Source: Candidatus Tayloriibacteriota bacterium (GTDB lineage Bacteria; Patescibacteriota; Minisyncoccia; Phycocordibacterales; PALSA-1337). From it: a stretch of 62,830 nucleotides of DNA. The position numbers were made by a program, and so were the translations under genes. Location of the stretch: NCBI GenBank assembly GCA_903839695.1, contig CAIMDI010000026.1, positions 1-62,830 on the forward strand, written 5' to 3'. Below, piece by piece: positions 28,670-38,056 of this stretch; the first letter of the stretch is position 1; the number at the start of each line of letters is the position of its first letter. Under the pieces are notes generated by a model that was given only the letters and a program-made list of their open reading frames with translations, had not been told where the DNA came from and ran no database searches.

Positions 28670-29182
28670 ATGGAACAAACAAATGGTATTAAAACTTGGC
28701 AGTGGATTGTGACAGTTGTAGTTATTATTTTATTAATTGTACTTGGATACAAAATGTTCAGTGGTTCTTCATCAGCAGTTGTAAGTAAAACTGAGAATGT
28801 AGATACTGCAACATCAACTGCAACAAAAGTAGAAAATGCAAATCTAAATCGCATTATGGTTTCAGATCAGGCTCCTGGAAATAAGGTATATATTTCTTCT
28901 GTTCAGCTTTCAGCAGGTGGTTTCGTAGTAGTACAGAAAGACAATAAAGGTACACCGGGGGATATTATGGGTGACAAATACTTTGAAAGAGGTATATATC
29001 CTGGACAAGTTTCATTGACATCACCAACAGCTGAAAATGGCACATACTATGCTGTTATATATTCTGATGATGGAGATAAGAAATTTGATTCAAAGAAAGA
29101 TTTACCTCTAAAGGATTCAGCTGGAAATGTTATTTTAAAAGTATTTAAAGTTACATCTTCACCAACTGATTTAAAGGGTTAA
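28670..29182 (+). CDS. membrane-anchored hypothetical protein with beta-sandwich-like ectodomain
   Basis: Start at ATG 28670. TM WQWIVTVVVIILLIVLGY, then VYISSVQLSAGGFVVVQKDNKGTPGDIMG...YYAVIYSDDGDKKFD. Confidence 0.5.
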   Translation: MEQTNGIKTWQWIVTVVVIILLIVLGYKMFSGSSSAVVSKTENVDTATSTATKVENANLNRIMVSDQAPGNKVYISSVQLSAGGFVVVQKDNKGTPGDIMGDKYFERGIYPGQVSLTSPTAENGTYYAVIYSDDGDKKFDSKKDLPLKDSAGNVILKVFKVTSSPTDLKG

Positions 29183-29206
29183 TCAAAATCATTTTAGAGT
29201 AAAAAG

Positions 29207-29238
29207 AAAACCGCTTCGAATTCTCGATGCGGTTTTTT
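29207..29238 (+). terminator. rho-independent terminator
   Basis: AAAACCGC...GCGGTTTTTT. Confidence 0.7.
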
Positions 29239-29281
29239 GATTTTATGTGTGAGGAATTACTTTCGTCACCTCCTCACTAAC

Positions 29282-29563
29282 TTACTTCATTACTGGCATT
29301 TTTCCGGGCTCAATAATGTCCCAATGCCCGTGTGGTTCACCATTTTCAGGCATTGTGTATGACGCAACTTGCCAGCCGACTTCAGACGGGTAGTCTTGGC
29401 CCGGAATAACATTGACCCATCTTTGTTTTATACCAAGACAAGTATGCACTGTGCCACCAATTGCATTCACAAGCCTACTTGTTGAATCACACCTTACAAT
29501 CCTCACTATCATCAAGTTCGTGTCTTGCGCAGTAAACTCATGCGGTTGTTTGTAGCTTAGCAT
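29282..29563 (-). CDS. hypothetical 93-aa protein (GC-richer cassette)
   Basis: No TM and no motif. 40/100 G+C counted in 29401-29500. Own promoter. A GTGAGGA/TCCTCAC hairpin lies at 29248-29276 downstream. Confidence 0.45.
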   Translation of the reverse strand: MLSYKQPHEFTAQDTNLMIVRIVRCDSTSRLVNAIGGTVHTCLGIKQRWVNVIPGQDYPSEVGWQVASYTMPENGEPHGHWDIIEPGKMPVMK

Positions 29564-29639
29564 AACTTTTACAATTTGTACTTACTCCAACCTCACCCTT
29601 ATGGATTAAAAGAGTATAATTACTTAGGTTGCTGCGTAT

Positions 29640-29668
29640 ATATTGCATCAGTAAGGTAACTGTGTCAA
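29640..29668 (-). promoter_or_regulatory. promoter of 29282-29563
   Basis: Minus strand reads TTGACA (29663-29668), 17-nt spacer, CAATAT (29640-29645). A roughly 70-nt leader carries GGTGAGGTTGGAG. Confidence 0.4.
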
Positions 29669-29721
29669 ATATACATATTGCATAATCATCAGTAAATACC
29701 ATTTATTTTATGTTACTTTTC

Positions 29722-29730
29722 TGCTATTAT
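29722..29730 (+). promoter_or_regulatory. extended -10 box, 6 nt before the gltX ATG
   Basis: TGC-TATTAT then TAGCTT then ATG 29737. Confidence 0.45.
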
Positions 29731-29736
29731 TAGCTT

Positions 29737-31041
29737 ATGTTAAATACAAAAGTAGTAACGCGTTTTGCACCTTCACCAACCGGATTATTACATGCTGGTA
29801 ATTATAGAACTGCACTTTTTTCATATATTTTTTCTTTACAAAATAAAGGCAAATTTATCCTGCGAATCGAAGACACAGATAAAGCTAGATCAAAAAAAGA
29901 ATATGAGGATAATATTGTAGAAAGTCTAAAGTGGCTCGGTATTAAGTATGATGAATTTTATCGTCAATCTGATAGATCAGACTTATACGCTAGTAATCTT
30001 AAAAAACTTATAGACTCCGGACATGCATACGTTTCAAAAGAAATTCCAAAAGAAGTTGGTGATAGGGAAGAGGTAATTCGTTTCAAAAACCCAAACAAAA
30101 AAATTAGTTTCGTAGATTTAATTAGAGGAAAAATAGAATTTGATACTACTGATTTAGGTGATTTTATTATTGCAAGAAGTATGAATGAACCAGTATTTCA
30201 TCTTGTTGTTGTTATAGATGATTTTGAAATGGGTATAACACATATTATTAGAGGTGAAGATCATATATCAAATACTCCTAGGCATATTCTAATACAAGAG
30301 GCATTGGGTATTCCTACGCCTTTATACGCTCATATACCATTACTTCTAGCGCCTGATAGGTCAAAGATGTCAAAAAGAAAAGGAGCACTTCCTATCACAG
30401 ATTATCGTGATAGAGGCTATTTACCGAATGCATTGATAAATTATATGTCATTTTTAGGCTGGAATCCTGGTACTGAACAAGAAGTAATGAGTTTTGATGA
30501 AATTATCAATCAATTTAGTCTTGAGAAAGTTCAAAAGGCCGGTGCTATTTTTAATGAAGAAAAATTGTCTTGGTTCAACAAACAATACATAGACAAAATG
30601 TCCATTGATGATTTTGTTATAGCTGCCAAAAACTTTATTCCAGAAAATATTTCCCCAAAATTATTGCCATTGATAAAAGAAAAAATTTCTAAATTTTCAG
30701 AGATTAAACCTCTTTTTGAAACTGAACTTTCTTTCATTAACCCACTTCCAGTTTACTCATTCGAATTATTAAAATGGAAACAAGAAAAGGATTTAGTAAA
30801 CACAAAGGTTTATCTCGGACATATTGTTGAGGTGTTAGAAGTCATGACTGAGTTTACAAAAGAGTCTGTAAAACAAGCTTTATGGCCATATGCTGAAGAA
30901 AAAGGTAAAGGAAATATTCTATGGCCAATGCGTTTTGCCTTGTCTGGCAAAGATAAGTCTCCTGATCCATTTGTTATCGCTGAAATTCTTGGCAAAGAAG
31001 AAACGGTAAAAAGACTAAAATATGCCATTCAAAACATCTAG
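29737..31041 (+). CDS. gltX: glutamate--tRNA ligase
   Basis: RFAPSPTGLLHAGNYRTA (HIGH-like), KMSKRKG (KMSKS). Confidence 0.92.
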   Translation: MLNTKVVTRFAPSPTGLLHAGNYRTALFSYIFSLQNKGKFILRIEDTDKARSKKEYEDNIVESLKWLGIKYDEFYRQSDRSDLYASNLKKLIDSGHAYVSKEIPKEVGDREEVIRFKNPNKKISFVDLIRGKIEFDTTDLGDFIIARSMNEPVFHLVVVIDDFEMGITHIIRGEDHISNTPRHILIQEALGIPTPLYAHIPLLLAPDRSKMSKRKGALPITDYRDRGYLPNALINYMSFLGWNPGTEQEVMSFDEIINQFSLEKVQKAGAIFNEEKLSWFNKQYIDKMSIDDFVIAAKNFIPENISPKLLPLIKEKISKFSEIKPLFETELSFINPLPVYSFELLKWKQEKDLVNTKVYLGHIVEVLEVMTEFTKESVKQALWPYAEEKGKGNILWPMRFALSGKDKSPDPFVIAEILGKEETVKRLKYAIQNI

Positions 31042-32338
31042 CCTTATAAAATCCTTAATTATTCTTTTTGTATTTTTATACGCACTTATTTATATTACAC
31101 ATGCGGAGACTGCAGATGAATTAAAAATTAAAATTAATTCTACTAATGATTCAATACTAAAATTAGAGCAAGAAATTAAACAATATCAAAGTGAAATAGA
31201 CTCCATATCTAAAGAGAAAGATTCACTAAGCAGTGCTATAAAAGTTTTAGATGTTTCCAAAAAAAAACTTCAAGCAGATACTAAAATTACTGAAAGTAAA
31301 ATTTCAAATAAAAATCTTGAATTAAAAGAGTTGAATGCTCAAATAGGTGACAAGAGCGAGAGAATCCTTAATAGTAAAAGAGTAATAACACAGTCTTTAT
31401 ATAATATATCTCAATTAAATTCAGCTTCAACTATAGAGACCGTGCTTGGGAAAAAATCATTTTCTGAAATATGGAATAGCGCAGAAGAATTAAATACTTT
31501 GCAAACAGGAATGCAAGGTGAGATAAAAGATTTGTCTTCTTTGAAAGTAAATCTTGAGGGCAACAAAAAACAAATTGAAAAAATGAAGGCAGAACTTGTT
31601 GCATTGACTGCTGATTTGAAAAATCAAACAAAAGTAATTGCAGATAATATTGCTGAAAAGAATTCAATACTTTCTGACACAAAAAATACAGAAACAGGAT
31701 ATATTCAATTAATGAACACTCGTAAAGCACAAAAAGAACAATTTGAAAGTGAAGTTTTAAACTTTGAGTCAGCATTAAAAGCTATAGTTGATCCAAACAG
31801 TTTGCCCCCAAGTGCTTCTGGTGTCTTGAAATGGCCATTAAGTACTATTCGAATTACGCAATATTTTGGTAACACAGCATTCTCAACAAAAAACCCACAA
31901 ATTTATGCTGGTAGAGGTCATAATGGTATAGACTTTGCTGCTTCAGTTGGTACACCTGTTAAAGCTTCTTTGAGTGGTATTGTTGTTGATACTGGAAATA
32001 TGGACTTAGTAAATAATGGAAAATGTAAGAACTCTGGATCATATGGAAAATGGGTGCTTATACGTCATTATAACGGTTTATCAACACTATACGCACATTT
32101 ATCACAAATAAATGTAAGCGCTAAACAAAAAGTATCTGTGGGTGAGACTATTGCATTGAGCGGATATTCTGGAACAGTTGTACCTCAAGGCCCAAGAGGT
32201 GCGCACTTACATTTTGTATTATACGCCTCTGATGGAGTGAGCGTTGAAAAATTAACAACAGGAACAAATTGTCGAGGAGCAGTATTTCCAATGGCAGTAA
32301 AATCTGCGTATCTAAATCCTCTATCATATTTACCATAA
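31022..32338 (+). CDS. M23 peptidoglycan metalloendopeptidase with coiled-coil N-domain (EnvC-like)
   Basis: Signal/TM, long coiled coil, then GHNGIDFAASVGTPV...YAHLS...GAHLHF. Confidence 0.8.
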   Translation: MPFKTSSLIKSLIILFVFLYALIYITHAETADELKIKINSTNDSILKLEQEIKQYQSEIDSISKEKDSLSSAIKVLDVSKKKLQADTKITESKISNKNLELKELNAQIGDKSERILNSKRVITQSLYNISQLNSASTIETVLGKKSFSEIWNSAEELNTLQTGMQGEIKDLSSLKVNLEGNKKQIEKMKAELVALTADLKNQTKVIADNIAEKNSILSDTKNTETGYIQLMNTRKAQKEQFESEVLNFESALKAIVDPNSLPPSASGVLKWPLSTIRITQYFGNTAFSTKNPQIYAGRGHNGIDFAASVGTPVKASLSGIVVDTGNMDLVNNGKCKNSGSYGKWVLIRHYNGLSTLYAHLSQINVSAKQKVSVGETIALSGYSGTVVPQGPRGAHLHFVLYASDGVSVEKLTTGTNCRGAVFPMAVKSAYLNPLSYLP

Positions 32339-32367
32339 TTTTAAAAATAATAAATAATCAAAATAGT

Positions 32368-33531
32368 ATGTATAGAAAAACTTATATTGAAGTAAATGAA
32401 AGTAATTTAGAAAGTAATGTTAAAATTCTTTTAAATAACTATCCAGATTACAAATATTATTTTGGTGTTGTAAAGGGTAATGTCTATGGATATGGATATT
32501 CCTCTGTAAAATGTTTAATAAAATCAGGTATAAATTATATTGCAGTGTCTACTTTAGAGGAAGCTTTGTGTGTTAGAAATGAAGACAAAGACATACCTAT
32601 ATTATGTTTACAACCAATTCACTTGGAAGATATACCAGATGCTATCAAAAATAATATTACAATTACGATTTCAAATTTCGAATATTTTAAACAATTTTTA
32701 ACATTAAATTTTAATCAAAAAATTAAAGTACATATAAAAATCAATTCTGGTTTCAATAGACTAGGTATTGCTGATAAGAATGAAGTATTAAGTATATATA
32801 ATTCACTGAAAGAAAATACTTTCGTAGAAGTGGAAGGTATATTTTCGCATTTTGCTACTACTGGTATTTATGATAAATATTGGGATAATCAACTTTCAAG
32901 GTTTATTGAATTAACATCATTAATAAATATTAAAGAAATTTCTATTATACATTTTGGTAGAAGCTTAACATTGCTAAATCACGGAAAAATTGATTTTTGT
33001 AATGGAGTACGTATAGGTGTTGTTATGTATGGTTACAATCACACGCCTAAGAAACAAAAAGGACTTAAAGGTTTTGTAAAAAACTTAGTCAAAAAATACA
33101 ACTTTAAAATGCAAAATATCAGCCCTACTTTTACTGTATCTGAAAGCCTATTTAAACCATCTCTAAGTTTTTATAGTGAGATAACTGAGATAAGACATGT
33201 AAAAAAAGGACAATTTGTTGGATATGGAGCAGTATTTAAAGCCCACAATGACTCAATTATTGGTTTTCTATCAGCTGGTTATGCAGACGGATTTTTAAAA
33301 AGTAATGTAAATGGAGATGTTGCTATACACAATAAAAGATATAAAATTATTGCTGTAGATATGGGAATAATTACAGTACTGATAGATGAATCAGTTAAAG
33401 TTTATGATAAGGTAGAATTGATTGGAGAAAATATTAAAGCAATAGAAGTAGCAAGAAGAAATAATACAACGGTTTATGAAATCTTATCATTAATAAAAGA
33501 GAGTATTCCTAGAGTAAATAATAGATTATAG
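32368..33531 (+). CDS. alr: alanine racemase
   Basis: Start at ATG 32368 (MYRKTYIEVNESNL). VVKGNVYGYG (PLP lysine). ...GYADGF.... Confidence 0.85.
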   Translation: MYRKTYIEVNESNLESNVKILLNNYPDYKYYFGVVKGNVYGYGYSSVKCLIKSGINYIAVSTLEEALCVRNEDKDIPILCLQPIHLEDIPDAIKNNITITISNFEYFKQFLTLNFNQKIKVHIKINSGFNRLGIADKNEVLSIYNSLKENTFVEVEGIFSHFATTGIYDKYWDNQLSRFIELTSLINIKEISIIHFGRSLTLLNHGKIDFCNGVRIGVVMYGYNHTPKKQKGLKGFVKNLVKKYNFKMQNISPTFTVSESLFKPSLSFYSEITEIRHVKKGQFVGYGAVFKAHNDSIIGFLSAGYADGFLKSNVNGDVAIHNKRYKIIAVDMGIITVLIDESVKVYDKVELIGENIKAIEVARRNNTTVYEILSLIKESIPRVNNRL

Positions 33532-33634
33532 GGATACAAAAAGTTAGTAGGGAAGGCATTAGGTGTTAATTAAATGCCCTTTTAAGAAATAAAAAGTAGT
33601 GTTATAATTTAGATAATAATTAATAAAATATTTT

Positions 33635-33922
33635 ATGATTAAATGGATCGTTATCGTTATAATAGGATTAGTTGTACTAGGCTATTTAGGTTTTGATGTT
33701 AGAAAAGCAGTTGAATCTCCAACTTCACAAAGTAATATAGAGTATGTAAAAAACGCAATAGTATATTTGTGGAATAAATACTTAGCTAAGCCTGCAATAT
33801 ATTTATGGACTAACTTTAAAAATCTTATTTGGGATACAGCAGTAGATAATTTAACAAAGATTAAAAATGGTCAACCAACTAATGTTCAAACACTACCGTC
33901 TCCACTACCCAATAATCCATAG
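33635..33922 (+). CDS. small membrane protein, hypothetical
   Basis: 95 aa with N-terminal TM MIKWIVIVIIGLVVLGYLGF. A TGTTATAAT box lies about 30 nt upstream. Confidence 0.45.
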   Translation: MIKWIVIVIIGLVVLGYLGFDVRKAVESPTSQSNIEYVKNAIVYLWNKYLAKPAIYLWTNFKNLIWDTAVDNLTKIKNGQPTNVQTLPSPLPNNP

Positions 33923-33956
33923 ATTGATATTTACTCTTAAGTATAAAGAATGACCG

Positions 33957-33974
33957 ATGTCGCTTGTGCGACAT
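33957..33974 (+). terminator. hairpin ATGTCGC-TTGT-GCGACAT (shares its arm sequence with 34653-34693)
   Basis: 7-bp stem followed by TTGTTATTTT. Contains the 11-mer TTGTGCGACAT, which recurs at 34684-34694. Confidence 0.5.
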
Positions 33975-33998
33975 TTGTTATTTTAGTATGATATAGTC

Positions 33999-34616
33999 AT
34001 GGCTTACAATACAAAATGGACAATAGAAAAAATTAAAATTGGTTTCAAATCTTTTTATAATGAATTCGGACATTATCCTACTGCATATGAAATAGATAGA
34101 TATGCAAAACTTCCAAGTTCAAGACAAATTCAGAGAGTATTTGGCGGACTTATTGAAATTAGGAAAATGCTAAGCTTAAAAGAAACTGACTTTACTAAAG
34201 GCGAATTTAGCTCAAAACGAGCTCTTAAAATCACTCAGAAGGCTTCGACAGCAAACCTAGATGTGTATACATACCTTGTAAAAACCTTTGGAGTTGATTA
34301 TGTTCAGAAGGATTACAATTTAGGAGATGATAAAAGAAATAGAATTGATTTTCATGTAATTAATAAGAAAGGTGACTTTTTAATAGATATATTTGCACCA
34401 AGTAATACAAGAACATTAATTGGTTGTCTTAATAGCAAATTAAAAACTTATGGAGAGTTAAATATTGATTTGCCGATAATATTTTTAATGATGAATGATT
34501 CAATAACAAGTCAGAAGCTAGGGGATATAGTAAGAAATAAAAAAAGTAAGTTAAGACAGAGACAACAAGTGATGACATTCGAGGATCTTAAGTCATATTG
34601 TAACTCTAGAAAATAG
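33999..34616 (+). CDS. protein with homing-endonuclease-associated (HNH-repeat-like) HTH module, possible nuclease
   Basis: WTIEKIKIGFKSFYNEFGHYPTAYEIDRYAKLPSSRQIQRVFGGLIEIRKMLSL fits the W-x-E-x-I...G-x-x-PT...PS....FG.. repeat seen next to homing/restriction nucleases. The C-terminal part (RIDFHVINKKGDFLIDIF) is unassigned. Confidence 0.4.
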   Translation: MAYNTKWTIEKIKIGFKSFYNEFGHYPTAYEIDRYAKLPSSRQIQRVFGGLIEIRKMLSLKETDFTKGEFSSKRALKITQKASTANLDVYTYLVKTFGVDYVQKDYNLGDDKRNRIDFHVINKKGDFLIDIFAPSNTRTLIGCLNSKLKTYGELNIDLPIIFLMMNDSITSQKLGDIVRNKKSKLRQRQQVMTFEDLKSYCNSRK

Positions 34617-34652
34617 TGAATAAATAGGGAACAGCTTTATATAATATGTACT

Positions 34653-34693
34653 TGTCGCACAAGCTATCGTCTTAAAAGATATATTGTGCGACA
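34653..34693. repeat. inverted repeat TGTCGCACAA / TTGTGCGACA (10-bp arms, 21-nt spacer)
   Basis: Arms at 34653-34662 and 34684-34693, the same arm sequence as the hairpin at 33957-33974. Together the two bracket ORF 33999-34616. Confidence 0.6.
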
Positions 34694-34928
34694 TAGTATC
34701 TCAATCTATATATAGCTTCAAAATAGACAAAAATGACTACCCCCTCTTTATAGAACAGTAATAACTAAATATCTTAAAATTACTTACAGGATTAATCAGT
34801 GATAAGTTTTGATTCATATTCTTTAAGATATATATTATCTTTTCAAATAGTAGATTAGTTAACAAGATAAATTGAAATTAGTACTTTATTTATAAAACCG
34901 CACTAGTAACACGGTAAAGATCAATTCC

Positions 34929-35198
34929 CTATTTGATATAGTTCTTAGTCCACCACTTTTTTATAAATGGTAATGATTGTGTTGAAAGAAAGTAACCTAA
35001 GGTCGGTATAATAGCTCCAAGTAAAAAATTATTTGCTCCGATAACGTAGAGTGCAATAGATGCAAACACATATGTTATAACCAGTATAGAGAATGCTCGT
35101 ATACGGCTTATTTCCCAAGCTTTATTGATTTCAACTTTCTTATTACGATCTTTGACGAGAATTATTTCTTCCTCAATTTTTTTTATTCTATCTTCCAT
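34929..35198 (-). CDS. small two-TM membrane protein, hypothetical
   Basis: 89 aa. Charged N-terminus then two hydrophobic helices. Host-like AT-rich composition. Confidence 0.5.
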   Translation of the reverse strand: MEDRIKKIEEEIILVKDRNKKVEINKAWEISRIRAFSILVITYVFASIALYVIGANNFLLGAIIPTLGYFLSTQSLPFIKKWWTKNYIK

Positions 35199-35276
35199 GA
35201 TTTTTTAATTATATCAAATAAAAAGGAGCCCACCAATACTTGGCAGACCCCTTTTACGTTTTGAAGAGTGATCGAA

Positions 35277-35471
35277 TCAGGCATCCTTTTTTCCGGTTGT
35301 ATGATTGCCTTCGCCACCGAAGAACTTTAGGACAACAAAGGCAAGGGCAAACATCGTTGCACCACCCTCCGTCAATTGTTGAACGGTTGGTATACCACGA
35401 ACCACAGTCAGAAGAATGCAAGAAACGATTGTAACTCCCAACGCACATAGCAAAGATTTTTTTGTACTCAT
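35277..35471 (-). CDS. small two-TM membrane protein (GC-richer)
   Basis: Of three overlapping ORFs here, only this one gives a coherent membrane protein: LLCALGVTIVSCILLTVV ... MFALAFVVLKFF. Confidence 0.4.
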   Translation of the reverse strand: MSTKKSLLCALGVTIVSCILLTVVRGIPTVQQLTEGGATMFALAFVVLKFFGGEGNHTTGKKDA

Positions 35472-35606
35472 AAAATTACCGCCATTGAGTATCTAAACTT
35501 ACCCACTCCATCTTTATATATATTGACAAACTCCCCTTTTATAAAGTAATATATTCGCAGTCAGTTTAGTTGAGTAGTTAAACAAAACGTGAGGAAAAAC
35601 ATTATT

Positions 35607-35918
35607 ATGAATGGAGTGATAAAATGCGGTGCACCGAACATAAGCAATACAAAAGTGCTCGTGAAGATTAATGGTGAAGAAAATGAAATATGCGTTGAGA
35701 CCGGAAATTTCCTTTTCGTAAACATCATGGATAATCACAGCATAATCCCCGGCTCGCTGACAAGATATCAAAATCTGGTTCAAGATTTTAAAGATGATAA
35801 GAGAAGACACCCACCCATTAGGGTTGGTGACAGAGTGGTAGTTGAAGATATTCTTGAAACACCCACTATCATCTATGTTGTCATCAATCCTGGTGATCAG
35901 AGGAAATTGTCAGATTGA
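35607..35918 (+). CDS. hypothetical protein (GC-richer)
   Basis: ATG 35607 (a GTG alternative lies at 35589). TTGACA at 35525-35530 upstream. Followed by two hairpins. No motif recognised. Confidence 0.4.
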   Translation: MNGVIKCGAPNISNTKVLVKINGEENEICVETGNFLFVNIMDNHSIIPGSLTRYQNLVQDFKDDKRRHPPIRVGDRVVVEDILETPTIIYVVINPGDQRKLSD

Positions 35919-35960
35919 GACAGTTCGCATGGGCTTCTAAGCCCACACTGACTAAACAAA

Positions 35961-35991
35961 ACTGCGTTCTTTATGAACGCAGTTATTTTTT
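35961..35991 (+). terminator. rho-independent terminator
   Basis: ACTGCGTTC-TTTAT-GAACGCAGT followed by TATTTTTT. Preceded by a second hairpin, TGGGCT-TCTA-AGCCCA, at 35930-35945. Confidence 0.8.
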
Positions 35992-36003
35992 ATCTACATT
36001 GTT

Positions 36004-36084
36004 TTATACTAGCTTTCCAGCTTCTATGACGTGACGGACCAGAGTATTTGTATACTCTACTTCATTGTTCTACCAAGCTGTCTC
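36004..36084 (-). pseudogene. fossil copy 1 of the gap 3' end
   Basis: Minus-strand translation ..ETAW*NNEVEYTNTLVRHVIEAGKLV*. 65/79 nt identical to 37064-37144 at a constant offset of 1,060 nt. In-frame stop. Confidence 0.8.
36024..36055. repeat. 32-nt perfect direct repeat, copy A
   Basis: CTATGACGTGACGGACCAGAGTATTTGTATAC, identical to 37084-37115. Confidence 0.95.
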
Positions 36085-36313
36085 CGACTCATGATTTTGG
36101 CGTAAATCCAGCCGAACATTATTGGCAGTGCCACTAAAAAAAAGTCTGCTAGTGGAAACCAGCCTATACCAAGTTCATTCATACAGTAAGGAGGATTTGT
36201 AACATCGGCTCTAAAACAAAAAGTCTCCGTTATGTAGCCTCCTAGGTATGGGGATGCGATTGCTAAGCATAAACCTATTACGACTCCTATTAACCAATAT
36301 TTTTTGTGTTCAT
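36057..36313 (-). pseudogene. small two-TM membrane ORF interrupted by a frameshift in an A6 homopolymer
   Basis: ATG at 36313 reads MNTKNIG*. One extra A in the run at 36300-36305 would give MNTKKYWLIGVVIGLCLAIASPYLGGY...FFLVALPIMFGWIYAKIM...*. That 86-codon frame is open (36060-36317) but has no upstream start. Confidence 0.3.
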
Positions 36314-36317
36314 GTTT

Positions 36318-36407
36318 TTATATTAATCGCCCCGCCTTCACCACATGTTGTACCAACGTATTTGTATAACTTACTTCATTATCGTACCACGTCAGCTCCA
36401 TAAGCAT
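36318..36407 (-). pseudogene. fossil copy 2 of the gap 3' end (diverged, frame intact)
   Basis: Minus strand encodes MLMELTWYDNEVSYTNTLVQHVVKAGRLI*. It is colinear with the live C-terminus WYDNEMGYTNTLVRHVIAAGRLI* and 18/23 identical to it. Confidence 0.75.
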
Positions 36408-36576
36408 ATCTATCACAATTTTAAGAAAATCCCCCCGCTCGCTCACCTTTCCAATACTCAACGAATTAAGTGCTGAAAAGGTGGGCGGTCTGGTGTGATT
36501 ATTTTAGTTTCAAAGGACAGCTAAATCATATGCAAACTCCTGACGAATAGCAAGCAATAGAGCCGTATTTAGATAC

Positions 36577-36606
36577 TTGACAATACTACCTTATTAATGC
36601 TATAGT
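36577..36606 (+). promoter_or_regulatory. promoter of the orphan receiver gene
   Basis: TTGACA 36577-36582, 18-nt spacer, TATAGT 36601-36606. AGGA SD at 36614-36617. Confidence 0.45.
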
Positions 36607-36619
36607 ACGTATTAGGAAC

Positions 36620-36982
36620 ATGAAAAAAATACTCATTGTAGAAGACGGCCAAAAGTGGAGTGTCCAGTATCAACAGGATTTAGGTGGTTATGAGGTTAGC
36701 CTGATTATTGCCGAACGCGCTGATGAAGCACGGCGACAATTTGAAGTAAATCCTGATGTTGCTGCCATCGTCATGGACGGCTGTTTGTTTTCCGAAGCAC
36801 CAAACACACTCGAGCTTGTAAAAGAGTTTCGAGTCAAAGGTTATACAGGACCGATAATCGCTAACTCAAGCGATTATAATAAGGAGCTTCAAGAAGCTGG
36901 TTGTGATCATACTTGCAAGTATGATTCGAAGGGATTTATCCCAGACCAACTTATTCAGCTTCTTGACCTGAAACATAAATAG
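36620..36982 (+). CDS. stand-alone response-regulator receiver (CheY-like) domain
   Basis: 120 aa. KILIVEDG, AAIVMDGCL (phospho-acceptor Asp position), GPIIANSS. No output domain. Confidence 0.55.
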   Translation: MKKILIVEDGQKWSVQYQQDLGGYEVSLIIAERADEARRQFEVNPDVAAIVMDGCLFSEAPNTLELVKEFRVKGYTGPIIANSSDYNKELQEAGCDHTCKYDSKGFIPDQLIQLLDLKHK

Positions 36983-37031
36983 TGGTTCACCCACTCGTTG
37001 AGAAGGCATCGTTAAGACCCTAGAGATTTAC

Positions 37032-37066
37032 CACCGCAGGCCCCAAGCTTGCGGTGAATTCTTTTA
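37032..37066 (+). terminator. hairpin after the receiver gene
   Basis: CACCGCA (37032-37038) pairs with TGCGGTG (37050-37056), then AATTCTTTT. Abuts the gap stop codon. Confidence 0.5.
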
Positions 37067-38056
37067 TATGAGTCTGCCAGCAGCTATGACGTGACGGACC
37101 AGAGTATTTGTATACCCCATTTCATTGTCATACCACGCTAATACCTTTACAAGATTTCCTCCTACCACTCTTGTGAATGCTAAATCTGCTATTGATGCAT
37201 GTAGATTTCCTTTTATGTCTGAAGACACCAAATCTTCTTCTGTTACTGTAAATATTCCCTTCCATCTTTCTTCTCCTGATGCCTTTTTTAATATTTCATT
37301 TACTTCTTCTACTGTTGTATTCTTTTTTGAAATAAAAGTAATATCAACTATTGAACCTGTTACTACCGGCACTCTAATAGATATACCATCAAATAGTCCT
37401 TTTAGATTGGTCATTATTTTTGTAACTGCTATTGCCGCACCTGTTGATGAGGGTACTAGATTTTGCGCCGCAGCTCTTCCCTCTCTCATGTCTTTTTTGC
37501 TTGGACCGTCAACTATTGCTTGGCTAGCTGTGTATGCATGCACTGTATTTAATAATGCTTTTTCAACACCAATACTTTCATCTAAAATAGCCAATAAAGG
37601 ACTTCCGGCGTTTGTTGTGCAAGATGCATTTGAAGAAATCTGACATGTTCTGAGCTTATCTTCATTCATTGACATCAATATAGTTTCTCCTTTGATAATA
37701 GACATAGGATCATCTTTTAATGGCGCAGTGACCACGACTCTCTTTGCACCAGCAACTATATGTGCTTGAGCTTTGTCGCTAGATGTAAATAATCCTGTAG
37801 ATTCTACAACTACGTCAATGTCCAAATCTCCCCAAGGTAATTTTGTAGGGTCCTTTTCACTTAAATATTTTACACCATCGAGTGTAAGATCACTTTTACC
37901 GTAAACTGAATCGTATTTTAATAAATAATTTACATTATCAATAGAAGTTAAATCATTAACAGCTACTATTTCTATATTTTCATTTTGCTTTGCAAGTTTA
38001 TAAAAAGCACGACCTATTCTTCCAAAACCATTTATTGCTACTTTTATTTTTTTCAT
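37064..38056 (-). CDS. gap: glyceraldehyde-3-phosphate dehydrogenase
   Basis: KVAINGFGRIGR, SNASCTTN, WYDNEMGY. Confidence 0.95.
   Translation of the reverse strand: MKKIKVAINGFGRIGRAFYKLAKQNENIEIVAVNDLTSIDNVNYLLKYDSVYGKSDLTLDGVKYLSEKDPTKLPWGDLDIDVVVESTGLFTSSDKAQAHIVAGAKRVVVTAPLKDDPMSIIKGETILMSMNEDKLRTCQISSNASCTTNAGSPLLAILDESIGVEKALLNTVHAYTASQAIVDGPSKKDMREGRAAAQNLVPSSTGAAIAVTKIMTNLKGLFDGISIRVPVVTGSIVDITFISKKNTTVEEVNEILKKASGEERWKGIFTVTEEDLVSSDIKGNLHASIADLAFTRVVGGNLVKVLAWYDNEMGYTNTLVRHVIAAGRLI
37084..37115. repeat. 32-nt perfect direct repeat, copy B (inside the live gap 3' end)
   Basis: Identical to 36024-36055. Confidence 0.95.

What the first reader, a model, noticed from the sequence alone, without database searches (positions are those of the whole stretch)
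35200..37145. Stacked insertions at the 3' end of gap: two fossil GAPDH C-termini and a 1,060-bp unit bounded by 32-bp perfect direct repeats
The last ~80 nt of the live gap gene (37064-37144, minus strand) recur at 36004-36084, exactly 1,060 nt away and in the same orientation. 65 of 79 aligned bases match, with a 32-nt perfect core CTATGACGTGACGGACCAGAGTATTTGTATAC (36024-36055 = 37084-37115). The distal copy translates to ..AW*NNEVEYTNTLVRHVIEAGKLV* and is dead. A second, far more diverged copy at 36318-36407 still encodes an intact colinear C-terminus, WYDNEVSYTNTLVQHVVKAGRLI*, which is 18/23 identical to the live WYDNEMGYTNTLVRHVIAAGRLI*. Between the copies sit GC-richer cargo genes: an orphan receiver domain and a frameshifted two-TM ORF. 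More GC-rich ORFs (35277-35471 and 35607-35918) lie beyond the distal copy. This is the footprint expected when integrative elements target the 3' end of a gene and supply a replacement 3' end, as with tRNA- or tmRNA-targeting islands, here at least twice. However, no integrase or transposase is present, and I do not know gap as a usual attachment site.
Basis: partly seen in the sequence, partly recalled or inferred. Interest (0 to 1): 0.7.

Follow-up and report, generated by a model that had tools for sequence, protein, structure and literature searches.

The report
Stacked phage scars behind gap gene
The repeated copies of the end of the glycolysis gene gap are scars left by viruses and related mobile elements that insert one behind another into the last ~50 bases of that gene in tiny uncultured Paceibacteria, each bringing its own replacement gene end; the mechanism is classical, but I found no earlier description of this target or host group.

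Summary
Three direct copies of the gap 3' end lie at 37064-37141 (live), 36318-36395 and 36004-36081, inside a GC-richer block. The 32-nt core is exact, with 0 matches expected by chance. Contigs identical to this strain switch sequence exactly at the E-M-G|Y-T codon boundary of copy 3. One continues into a tyrosine integrase gene about 350 bp away. The other continues into a new gap tail followed by a phage-type early gene. Homologous integrases in 23 of 80 metagenome loci, and in every close relative examined, carry a gap-tail mimic 350-690 nt downstream. One IMG/VR contig holds a complete 38.4-kb prophage between gap and a roughly 62-nt repeat of its 3' end. Another holds two tandem prophages stacked at gap. 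Most unoccupied Paceibacteria genomes have gap followed directly by rpiB. Each copy is therefore an att site made of an element arm (WYDNE-like codons) plus a tail (16 codons plus stop). The live GAPDH C-terminus is element-supplied. The 746-bp and 314-bp units are integrase-less remnants or mini-cassettes, comparable to CIMEs. This is a new member of a known kind (e14/icd, ICESt3/fda). Four literature searches found no prior report.

The parts
37064..38056 (-). Live gap (GAPDH, 330 aa). The body is host-encoded; the last 16 codons plus stop are element-supplied.
   Evidence: Pfam Gp_dh_N/Gp_dh_C. Sigma-DHODH-gap synteny is shared with relatives L098 and L100-L105.
37064..37115 (-). Tail T1 (G|YTNTLVRHVIAAGRLI*): the replacement 3' end belonging to unit E1. 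It contains the 32-nt core 37084-37115.
   Evidence: The switch point is mapped by analogy with the L003, L006, L214 and L101/L179 junctions. AAGRLI*/AAGRLV* tails travel with phage early genes (L101, L179) and occur as a fossil in L105.
37116..37141 (-). Host arm of the live site (codons LAWYDNEMG), at the attB-side of the crossover.
   Evidence: Alignment A1 and the sense-strand listing.
37032..37056 (.). GC-rich hairpin between the gap stop and the rec120 stop. It is flagged as a terminator on the + strand.
36620..36982 (+). Cargo ORF of unit E1: a 120-aa divergent CheY-like receiver protein with its own strong promoter-like site at 36577-36606 (TTGACA-18-TATAGT, 11/12).
   Evidence: Homologues sit in ordinary chromosomal contexts.
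36440..36544 (-). Remnant of an integrase-to-att spacer inside E1.
   Evidence: 73% identity over 105 nt to the spacer just upstream of the arm in L049, plus shorter matches to L046.
36370..36395 (-). Arm of E1 (LTWYDNEVS codons); the first half of copy 2.
   Evidence: It resembles the 'CTGACATGGTA' arms of the L049/L179 integrase clade.
36318..36369 (-). Tail T2 (YTNTLVQHVVKAGRLI*), belonging to unit E2; the second half of copy 2.
36057..36313 (-). Small two-TM ORF of unit E2, in gap sense, starting 5 nt after the T2 stop. It is frameshifted in the homopolymer run at 36300-36305, and its 3' end overlaps the next arm.
   Evidence: It belongs to the MK.K.YWL..GW.Y.KI family that follows tails in L015, L049, L057, L105, L127 and L130. 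There is a 42-nt match to L057/L059.
36056..36081 (-). Arm of E2 (AW*NNEVE); the first half of copy 3. Its in-frame stop is harmless because arms are non-coding after integration.
   Evidence: L003 keeps this arm but carries a different tail.
36004..36055 (-). Tail T3 (YTNTLVRHVIEAGKLV*), the oldest displaced tail; it contains the 32-nt core 36024-36055. L006 keeps this tail but joins it to the arm of an integrase-bearing element.
   Evidence: The nearest relative L098 has the live tail ...EAGKLI*.
35960..35984 (.). Bidirectional intrinsic terminator following tail T3.
   Evidence: (I14).
35210..35959 (.). Distal GC-richer block (GC 0.39) holding a 103-aa ORF (35607-35918, +) and a 64-aa membrane ORF (35277-35471, -). 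It is either an older element remnant or variable host DNA. The left edge at 35209/35210 is a breakpoint in one population variant (L008).
   Evidence: No arm or tail remnant was detected at its left end.

Best explanation
The region is a decayed, stacked array of attachment sites. It was left by temperate phages and phage-derived integrative elements of Paceibacteria (Patescibacteria/CPR) that integrate by tyrosine-recombinase site-specific recombination into the 3' end of gap.

Each element carries an attP 350-690 bp downstream of its integrase gene. The attP has two parts. The first is an arm of about 26 nt that imitates the codons (L)(A/T)WY.NE.G. The second is a 52-nt tail encoding YT.TLV.HV...AG(R/K)L(I/V)* plus stop, usually followed by a terminator or by a small sense ORF. 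Strand exchange occurs at the E-M-G|Y-T codon boundary (sense GGG|GTAYAC). This boundary lies within an imperfect dyad, GTAT-N4-ATAC or GGGTA-N6-TACCC.

Integration joins the host gap body to the element's tail, so GAPDH stays full length with 16 element-encoded residues. The previous tail is moved to the far end, next to the integrase, behind the element's arm. Repeated integration at the live site stacks elements. Loss of their interiors leaves small units bounded by att sites.

Reading away from gap, the window contains: the live site (host arm + T1); unit E1 (746 bp, 36370-37115, with a receiver-like cargo gene); copy 2 (E1 arm + T2); unit E2 (314 bp, 36056-36369, with a frameshifted small membrane ORF); copy 3 (E2 arm + T3); and then older GC-rich DNA. 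In sister contigs of the same strain, an integrase-bearing element (E_int) sits between the E2 arm and T3. The window is therefore its empty state, either pre-integration or excised.

Shown: the repeats, the hybrid junctions, the linkage of integrase and att across many loci, a complete prophage, a tandem prophage pair, and the unoccupied gap-rpiB sites. Inferred: catalysis by the integrase, the exact cleavage positions, the order of events, and whether E1 and E2 arose by deletion or are mobilisable mini-elements.
For: (1) Three copies share one register and one boundary.

(2) Arms and tails reassort at a single point in strain variants. L006 is 100% identical to window 28929-36055 and then switches to a new arm, followed about 350 bp later by a 330-aa PF00589 integrase. 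L003 matches window 40615-36056 and then carries a new tail (YTYTLVEHVIKAGRLV*); 16 of its 18 mismatches fall within 36007-36052, and a phage-type first gene follows. A second sample shows the same geometry.

(3) L214 has the identical integrase protein and arm joined to a third, different tail.

(4) The integrase family has 412 homologues. The invariant residues R150, H258, R261, H284 and Y293 fit a tyrosine recombinase.

(5) Gap-tail mimics lie downstream of the integrase, on the same strand, in L009-L017 and in 23 of 80 metagenome loci. Arrays reach five tails.

(6) IMGVR_UViG_3300014208_001117 is a complete example. It reads: gap, a repeat of about 62 nt, Sak4/exonuclease/DnaD/DnaC/TerS genes, integrase, and the repeat again 38,371 bp later.

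(7) IMGVR_UViG_3300025323_000513 holds two tandem prophages at gap.

(8) In the GTDB MAG L101, gap carries the same tail peptide as L179 and is followed by early genes up to about 90% identical in amino acids. Nucleotide identity between the two begins at GGGTAC.

(9) In 28 gap-centred Paceibacteria genomes the live gap is followed directly by rpiB. Arrays elsewhere end with rpiB or another native neighbour of gap.

(10) The element-side DNA of L006 has GC 0.435, which matches the GC-rich insert.

(11) E1 retains a piece of an integrase-to-att spacer.
Against: No integrase, excisionase or phage structural gene lies in the window. The two ends of E_int come from different samples, and its interior was not recovered. 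No circular attP junction and no read-level evidence of excision was available. E_int sits at the internal copy 3 rather than at the live site, although its arm matches the live site better (17/26 against 15/26). The identical stretch shared by the recombining partners at that junction is only about 3 nt, which is short for a canonical 6-8-bp overlap. The distal block 35210-36003 has no recognisable arm or tail at its left end. The sources of tails T1 and T2 were not found in IMG/VR.
Confidence: 0.85

Rival explanations
1. The small units (E2, and similar 280-420-bp units elsewhere) are not prophage debris. They are dedicated single-ORF mini-cassettes of the form tail + small membrane ORF + arm. 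Phage integrases capture and shuffle them at the gap 3' end, and they are expressed by read-through from gap, in an integron-like logic.
For: Compact units recur in independent genomes: window 314 bp, L098 283, L130 332, L167 334, L015 347, L057 414/364/322. Most begin with a sense ORF 8-31 nt after the preceding tail's stop and end at the next arm. A shared MK.K.YWL family of small TM proteins occupies many of them. L130 holds a single such unit with no integrase within about 6 kb.
Against: No identical cassette was seen in two different arrays. There is no attC-like hairpin: fold z-scores are -1.1, +1.3 and -2.4, and no inverted repeats lie at the sites. E1 carries an antisense gene with its own promoter and a spacer remnant, which fits deletion better. 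Decayed CIMEs and microCIMEs of similar sizes are known to arise from ICEs and IMEs (PMC7563491). The search for homologues of the TM ORF found nothing.
Confidence: 0.2
2. The insertions arose through homologous (Campbell-type or transformation-driven) recombination of foreign circular DNA via the conserved WYDNE...YTNTLV codons, without a dedicated integrase.
For: The gap 3' end is highly conserved, so 30-60-nt identities are available (32 nt here, about 62 nt in L208/L206). No integrase lies in the window.
Against: The switch point falls in the same position, within about 3 nt, in L003, L006, L214 and L101/L179, even where flanking identity is poor. A conserved integrase gene is physically linked to the site in dozens of loci, at a fixed distance and orientation.
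Confidence: 0.07
3. Local tandem duplication of the gap 3' end followed by decay, or an assembly artefact.
For: Direct repeats lie in the same orientation next to the parent gene.
Against: The spacers are unrelated to gap and are GC-richer. Copy 2 is more diverged than the distal copy 3. The arms carry element-type sequences shared with integrase-adjacent sites elsewhere. The assemblies retrieved from several samples carry the same arrangement at >=99.99% identity.
Confidence: 0.02

Closest known systems
e14 (and, from my own knowledge, phage 21) integrated in the 3' end of icd in Escherichia coli
   Same: A prophage uses the 3' end of a central-metabolism gene as attB and supplies a substitute 3' end, so the enzyme stays intact. 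It leaves the displaced C-terminal fragment (icdC) as a pseudogene at the far end. Excision regenerates a chimeric gene (PMC13626634, which cites Hill et al. 1989).
   Different: The target is gap rather than icd, and the host is Patescibacteria. Only 16 codons are replaced. Several elements are stacked, with mini-units between them. The integrase forms a conserved module with a TrpR-like and a PRTase-like gene.
ICESt1/ICESt3-family elements at the 3' end of fda, rpsI and rpmG, with CIMEs and microCIMEs formed by tandem accretion (streptococci)
   Same: The recombinase is a tyrosine integrase and the target is the 3' end of a housekeeping (including glycolytic) gene. Composite islands contain three or more att sites. 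Integrase-less units of 0.13-13 kb retain their att sites, and a functional element can integrate into a flanking att site of a resident one (PMC7563491).
   Different: Those elements are conjugative or mobilisable elements of Firmicutes. Here the intact members are phages (TerL/TerS, Sak4, RepO) and no conjugation genes were seen. Cis-mobilisation is untested here.
tRNA- and tmRNA-targeting prophages and genomic islands (general knowledge)
   Same: The attP contains a copy of the target gene's 3' end, integration restores the gene, and tandem arrays and fossil att sites accumulate.
   Different: The target here is protein-coding, so the mimic must keep an open reading frame and a functional C-terminal helix. 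Only the tail half is under that constraint; the arm half is free to accumulate stops.
Integrons
   Same: Arrays of small, mostly sense-oriented ORF units are bounded by recombination sites and lie downstream of an expressed position next to a tyrosine recombinase.
   Different: No attC-type folded sites are present and the sites are mimics of a coding sequence. The integrase belongs to phage genomes. IntI-specific features were not examined.

Membership tests
Site-specific integrative element or prophage targeting a gene's 3' end (e14/icd type) | The element is flanked by direct repeats of the target gene's 3' end, and the target is restored by element-borne sequence. | tested here: met
   The window has three in-register copies. 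A complete example has repeats of about 62 nt spaced 38,371 bp apart.
Site-specific integrative element or prophage targeting a gene's 3' end (e14/icd type) | A recombinase gene lies adjacent to one att site. | tested here: not met
   This is not met in the window itself, where tblastn finds no integrase. It is met in the sister contig L006 of the same strain and in more than 30 related loci. The window therefore holds remnants and an empty site, not an intact element.
Site-specific integrative element or prophage targeting a gene's 3' end (e14/icd type) | The recombinase has the tyrosine-recombinase fold and catalytic residues. | tested here: met
   PF00589 was precomputed for P0001 and its relatives. 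R150, H258, R261, H284 and Y293 are invariant in alignment A2.
Site-specific integrative element or prophage targeting a gene's 3' end (e14/icd type) | Occupied and empty sites coexist in one population, with reciprocal hybrid junctions. | tested here: met
   The window is the empty state, L003 is attL-like and L006 is attR-like, and all switch at 36053-36056.
Site-specific integrative element or prophage targeting a gene's 3' end (e14/icd type) | Excision or circularisation (an attP junction) is demonstrated. | not testable with these tools
   No read data were available. L013 may be an attP or a tandem junction.
CIME / microCIME (decayed cis-mobilisable elements in tandem accretion) | The unit is bounded by att sites and lacks recombination and transfer genes. 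| tested here: met
   E1 (36370-37115) and E2 (36056-36369) each lie between an arm and a tail and encode no recombinase.
CIME / microCIME (decayed cis-mobilisable elements in tandem accretion) | The unit derives from a larger element by internal deletion. | tested here: inconclusive
   E1 keeps about 105 nt homologous to an integrase-att spacer. E2 is a compact ORF unit that could instead be a dedicated cassette.
CIME / microCIME (decayed cis-mobilisable elements in tandem accretion) | The parent is an ICE or IME, and mobilisation is by conjugation. | tested here: not met
   The intact relatives are phages (TerL, TerS, Sak4, RepO). No conjugation genes were seen in the loci annotated.
Integron | Cassettes end in attC sites that fold as imperfect hairpins. 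| tested here: not met
   No inverted repeats lie at the sites. Single-strand fold z-scores are -1.08, +1.33 and -2.36.
Integron | An IntI-type integrase with attI and a Pc promoter is present. | not tested
   IntI-specific features were not examined. The integrase sits in phage genomes with TrpR-like and PRTase-like neighbours.

The most novel reading that the evidence does not exclude
The gap 3' end of Paceibacteria works as an integron-like capture platform. Phage-type tyrosine integrases insert and shuffle about 300-bp single-gene mini-cassettes (gap-tail + small membrane protein ORF + arm). These are transcribed from the strong gap promoter, perhaps as superinfection-exclusion or surface-modifying genes. 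Under this reading the arrays are functional, exchangeable gene banks and not only prophage debris.
Probability: 0.2. Interest if true: 0.75.

Novelty: new member of a known kind. Interest (0 to 1): 0.5.

Why it matters
Patescibacteria (CPR) are abundant and mostly uncultured, and their phages are mainly inferred indirectly. This result gives a defined integrase/attP/attB system.

1. It is a sequence-based way to assign phage contigs to Paceibacteria hosts: the gap-tail mimic beside the integrase.
2. The array is a readable record of successive infections at one locus.
3. The C-terminal 16 residues of an essential glycolytic enzyme are of viral origin in many of these genomes.
4. The integrase and its att pair are candidates for a site-specific integration tool in a group for which I know of few genetic tools.

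The strain-level occupied/empty polymorphism also suggests that the system is currently active in the sampled population.

Tried and rejected
- Looked for an empty site in close relatives (gap followed by the homologue of the 89-aa ORF). Downstream synteny is not conserved; only the upstream sigma-DHODH-gap order is. The usual native neighbour of gap turned out to be rpiB, which is absent from the window.
- Searched for a gap gene within 10 kb upstream of the integrases. None was found. The elements are about 38 kb long, and this was resolved with IMG/VR contigs.
- I first read L179 as a free attP. I corrected this to a junction between two tandem prophages after finding a gap 3' end at the edge of the same UViG.
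- Searched IMG/VR for the distal parts of tails T1 and T2: no hits.
- Searched for homologues of the small TM ORF: none.
- Checked contexts of the homologues of the receiver-like cargo gene. They are ordinary chromosomal contexts with no gap tails, so this is captured cargo.
- Tried to find the target of the integrase clade that lacks gap tails. There is no tRNA or tmRNA within 1 kb and no Rfam family at the site. The target remains unknown.
- Tested for attC-like folding of the sites: not supported.
- Searched the literature for gap as an att site or for CPR elements targeting gap: nothing found.
- Tried to extend the 33 nt of alternative sequence in L008. It has no informative match.


Full report
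**1. The observation**

The window contains one direct-repeat family with three members: 35998-36079, 36312-36393 (65% identity to the first) and 37058-37139 (83%). The 32-nt core is found exactly twice, while 100 dinucleotide-preserving shuffles gave none even with three mismatches allowed.

The live copy is the end of a 330-aa GAPDH gene at 37064-38056 on the minus strand. The stated translations are correct. The block 35210-37115 has GC 0.39-0.42, against 0.30-0.31 in the flanks.

The two-TM ORF is interrupted by a one-base shift in a 6-base homopolymer run at 36300-36305. The 120-aa ORF is only a weak receiver-domain match.

The arrangement recurs at >=99.99% identity in the contigs retrieved from independent samples and assemblers. 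It is therefore not an assembly artefact.

**2. Anatomy of a copy**

Aligning the copies in the sense of gap shows that each one has two halves.
- The arm is about 26 nt and corresponds to the codons L-A/T-W-Y-D-N-E-x-G.
- The tail is 52 nt: the last base of the Gly codon, then 16 codons (YTNTLV.HV...AG[RK]L[IV]) and the stop.

The halves reassort independently. The live site is host arm + T1 (AAGRLI*). Copy 2 is another arm + T2 (VQHVVKAGRLI*). Copy 3 is a third arm (AW*NNEVE) + T3 (EAGKLV*). The in-frame stop in copy 3 lies in the arm, and arms do not need to code.

**3. Strain variants supply the missing recombinase**

I looked up exact copies of the flanking proteins in public assemblies.

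L006 (ERZ27313358) is 100% identical to window 28929-36055. That covers the host flank, the distal ORFs and tail T3 up to ...GTATAC. It then continues with a different arm (CCCATTTCACATCGGTACCATGCT on the window + strand). About 350 bp further on lies a 330-aa tyrosine recombinase, followed by a PRTase-like gene, a Trp-repressor-like gene and secreted-protein genes.

L003 (ERZ27313200) matches window 40615-36056, which spans gap, E1, copy 2, E2 and the arm of copy 3. It then carries a new tail (YTYTLVEHVIKAGRLV*), a terminator and the start of a new gene. Sixteen of its 18 mismatches to the window lie in 36007-36052. A contig from a third sample has the same geometry.

The two junctions are reciprocal. 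Together they describe one element, E_int, sitting exactly between the arm and tail of copy 3. The window is its empty state. The attP reconstructed from the L006 arm and the L003 tail is 21/26 and 43/52 identical to the site next to a related integrase in L013. The DNA after the L003 tail is 73.6% identical to the DNA after the L013 tail.

A fourth contig, L214, encodes the identical integrase protein and arm joined to yet another tail plus a small membrane ORF. The same element therefore occurs in a second context, and the switch is again at GGG|GTATAC.

**4. The element family**

The integrase has 412 homologues at E<=1e-10, mostly from Patescibacteria. Box residues R150, H258, R261, H284 and Y293 are invariant.

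All contexts of the three closest homologues carry GAPDH C-terminal mimics downstream of the integrase on the same strand. These contexts come from JGI, NCBI and Logan data. In 80 integrase-centred metagenome loci, 23 carry such a tail 350-690 nt after the integrase. These include all eleven loci with >=60% identity that have enough downstream sequence, plus a subclade at about 52% identity. Arrays reach five tails.

The remaining integrases, at about 55% identity, share the TrpR-like/PRTase-like/integrase module but have no gap tail. Their target is unknown.

**5. Intact examples**

*A complete prophage.* IMGVR_UViG_3300014208_001117 (40.5 kb) starts with a full gap gene. A repeat of about 62 nt then begins at the WYDNE codons. 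It is followed by Sak4-like, exonuclease, DnaD/RepO-like, DnaC-like, methyltransferase and small-terminase genes. At the far end come the integrase and the same repeat, 38,371 bp from the first. The two repeats differ only in their last codons. The gap-proximal one ends MVSFIK* and is followed by a terminator; the distal one ends MASFITHN*.

*Two tandem prophages.* IMGVR_UViG_3300025323_000513 (59.9 kb) has a gap 3' end at its edge, followed by phage early genes. About 37 kb further on lies an integrase with an arm|tail site. That site is followed by a second set of early genes, methyltransferases and a large terminase. I had first read this junction as a free attP and corrected that.

*An attL in a genome bin.* In the GTDB MAG contig L101, gap carries the tail peptide of that second phage and is followed by early genes up to about 90% identical in amino acids. 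Nucleotide identity between the two begins at GGGTAC.

**6. Unoccupied sites**

There are 75 gap-centred Patescibacteria loci. In 28 of them rpiB starts within 5-141 nt of the live gap stop (10-72 nt in most), and another group has a MESYNKL... gene there. Arrays elsewhere end with these same native neighbours: rpiB in L009, L016, L026, L044 and L167, and MESYNKL in L105.

Extra fossil tails occur in L098 (the closest relative, 89% identity), L105 (three tails), L130 and L167, with fragments in L102 and L129. None of the 80 representative genomes has the integrase within 8 kb downstream of gap. Several contigs break 60-230 nt after gap.

**7. Mechanism**

The best reading is classical. A tyrosine integrase recombines attP (arm|tail) with the gap 3' end at the E-M-G|Y-T boundary. 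The Y-T-x-T codons form an imperfect dyad, GTAT-N4-ATAC here and GGGTA-N6-TACCC in several phage sites. This dyad is a plausible core, but that is inference.

Integration gives gap a new 16-residue tail together with either a terminator or a co-transcribed ORF. The old tail is moved behind the element's arm. Repetition stacks the elements, and internal loss leaves units bounded by att sites.

E1 (746 bp) keeps about 105 nt of an integrase-att spacer. It also carries an antisense receiver-like gene with a strong promoter-like site. E2 (314 bp) is essentially one small membrane ORF.

The order of events for E_int cannot be decided. It may have integrated into the internal copy 3, or it may have excised from an older stack. 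Its arm matches the live site slightly better than copy 3.

**8. The mini-units**

Across eight arrays, most units begin with a sense ORF 8-31 nt after the preceding stop and end at the next arm. Many are 283-414 bp and encode small membrane proteins of one family. Two arrays carry a DUF6922/AbiEii pair.

This regularity fits either decayed elements that keep a selected 'moron' gene or dedicated mini-cassettes mobilised in trans. I give the second reading about 0.2. No identical cassette was seen in two arrays, and the sites lack attC-like structure.

**9. Comparison with known systems and novelty**

The closest precedents are e14 in icd, with its displaced icdC fragment (PMC13626634), and the ICESt3-family elements at the 3' ends of fda, rpsI and rpmG, which form accretion arrays of CIMEs and microCIMEs (PMC7563491). 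Islands that target tRNA and tmRNA genes follow the same logic (general knowledge).

Literature searches for gap as an attachment site, or for Patescibacteria elements or phages with defined integration sites, found nothing. I therefore rate this as a new member of a known kind. The mechanism is ordinary, but the target, the host group, the frequency of stacking and the compact cassettes are new details.

**10. Caveats**

- The two ends of E_int come from different samples, and its interior is unknown.
- No read-level data were available.
- The distal block 35210-36003 has no recognisable distal att site. One variant contig (L008) diverges at 35209/35210 into 33 nt of unmatched AT-rich sequence. 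This remains unexplained.

Noticed in passing
window 35209/35210 (L008 1-33): One contig from sample ERZ18632576 is 100% identical to window 32527-35209. It then continues with 33 nt of different, AT-rich sequence, 11 nt upstream of the start of the 89-aa ORF. A companion contig from the same sample ends at window 35293. This suggests a second structural variant at the left edge of the GC-rich block. The 33 nt resemble the start of the 89-aa ORF (14 of the first 18 nt).
   Followed up: partly
L006 1583-4767; L009, L013, L015, L026, L179 and many of L030-L097: A conserved three-gene module, made of a Trp-repressor-like protein (~105 aa), a PRTase-like protein (~335 aa) and the tyrosine integrase, often has a 100-aa ORF upstream on the opposite strand. 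It is shared by the gap-targeting elements and by a larger clade at about 55% identity that has no gap tail. No tRNA or tmRNA lies within 1 kb downstream in that clade, and its target is unknown.
   Followed up: partly
L051 3752-3872 and L080 9364-9486: Rfam LOOT RNA (RF03000) matches well above the gathering score (87.5 and 71.3 bits). They lie upstream of integrases of the non-gap clade.
   Followed up: no
window 36577-36606 and 36620-36982: A near-consensus sigma-70-type promoter (TTGACA-18-TATAGT with an extended TG) lies directly upstream of the receiver-like cargo ORF. Its homologues at about 40% identity sit next to bipA/typA and a DPBB_1 gene in other organisms (L209), so this gene looks like captured cellular cargo.
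   Followed up: partly
L009 14233-15300 and L105 9583-10847: The same DUF6922 + AbiEii (toxin-antitoxin / abortive-infection type) gene pair occupies one unit in two independent gap-tail arrays. Other units and element cargo include Fic, HicAB, Mrr and ResIII-type restriction genes, so defence-type cargo is common.
   Followed up: no
window 36300-36305: The frameshift in the small membrane ORF lies in a homopolymer run (6 bases where 7 would be in frame). It is present in every assembly that matches the window. It could be a fixed inactivation or a slippage-prone site.
   Followed up: no
L098-L172 (gap-centred genomes): Live GAPDH tails fall into two styles. One is ...AG(R/K)L(I/V)* (the element type, often with fossil tails or small TM ORFs downstream). 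The other is longer and reads ...KTG(N/Q/G)xI... (apparently native, followed by rpiB). Many Paceibacteria may therefore already carry a virus-derived GAPDH C-terminus.
   Followed up: partly
window, whole: The window has no rpiB and no MESYNKL-type gene downstream of gap, unlike most relatives. The upstream order sigma factor-DHODH-gap is conserved in L098 and L100-L105. The downstream side of gap in this organism therefore appears rearranged or replaced.
   Followed up: partly
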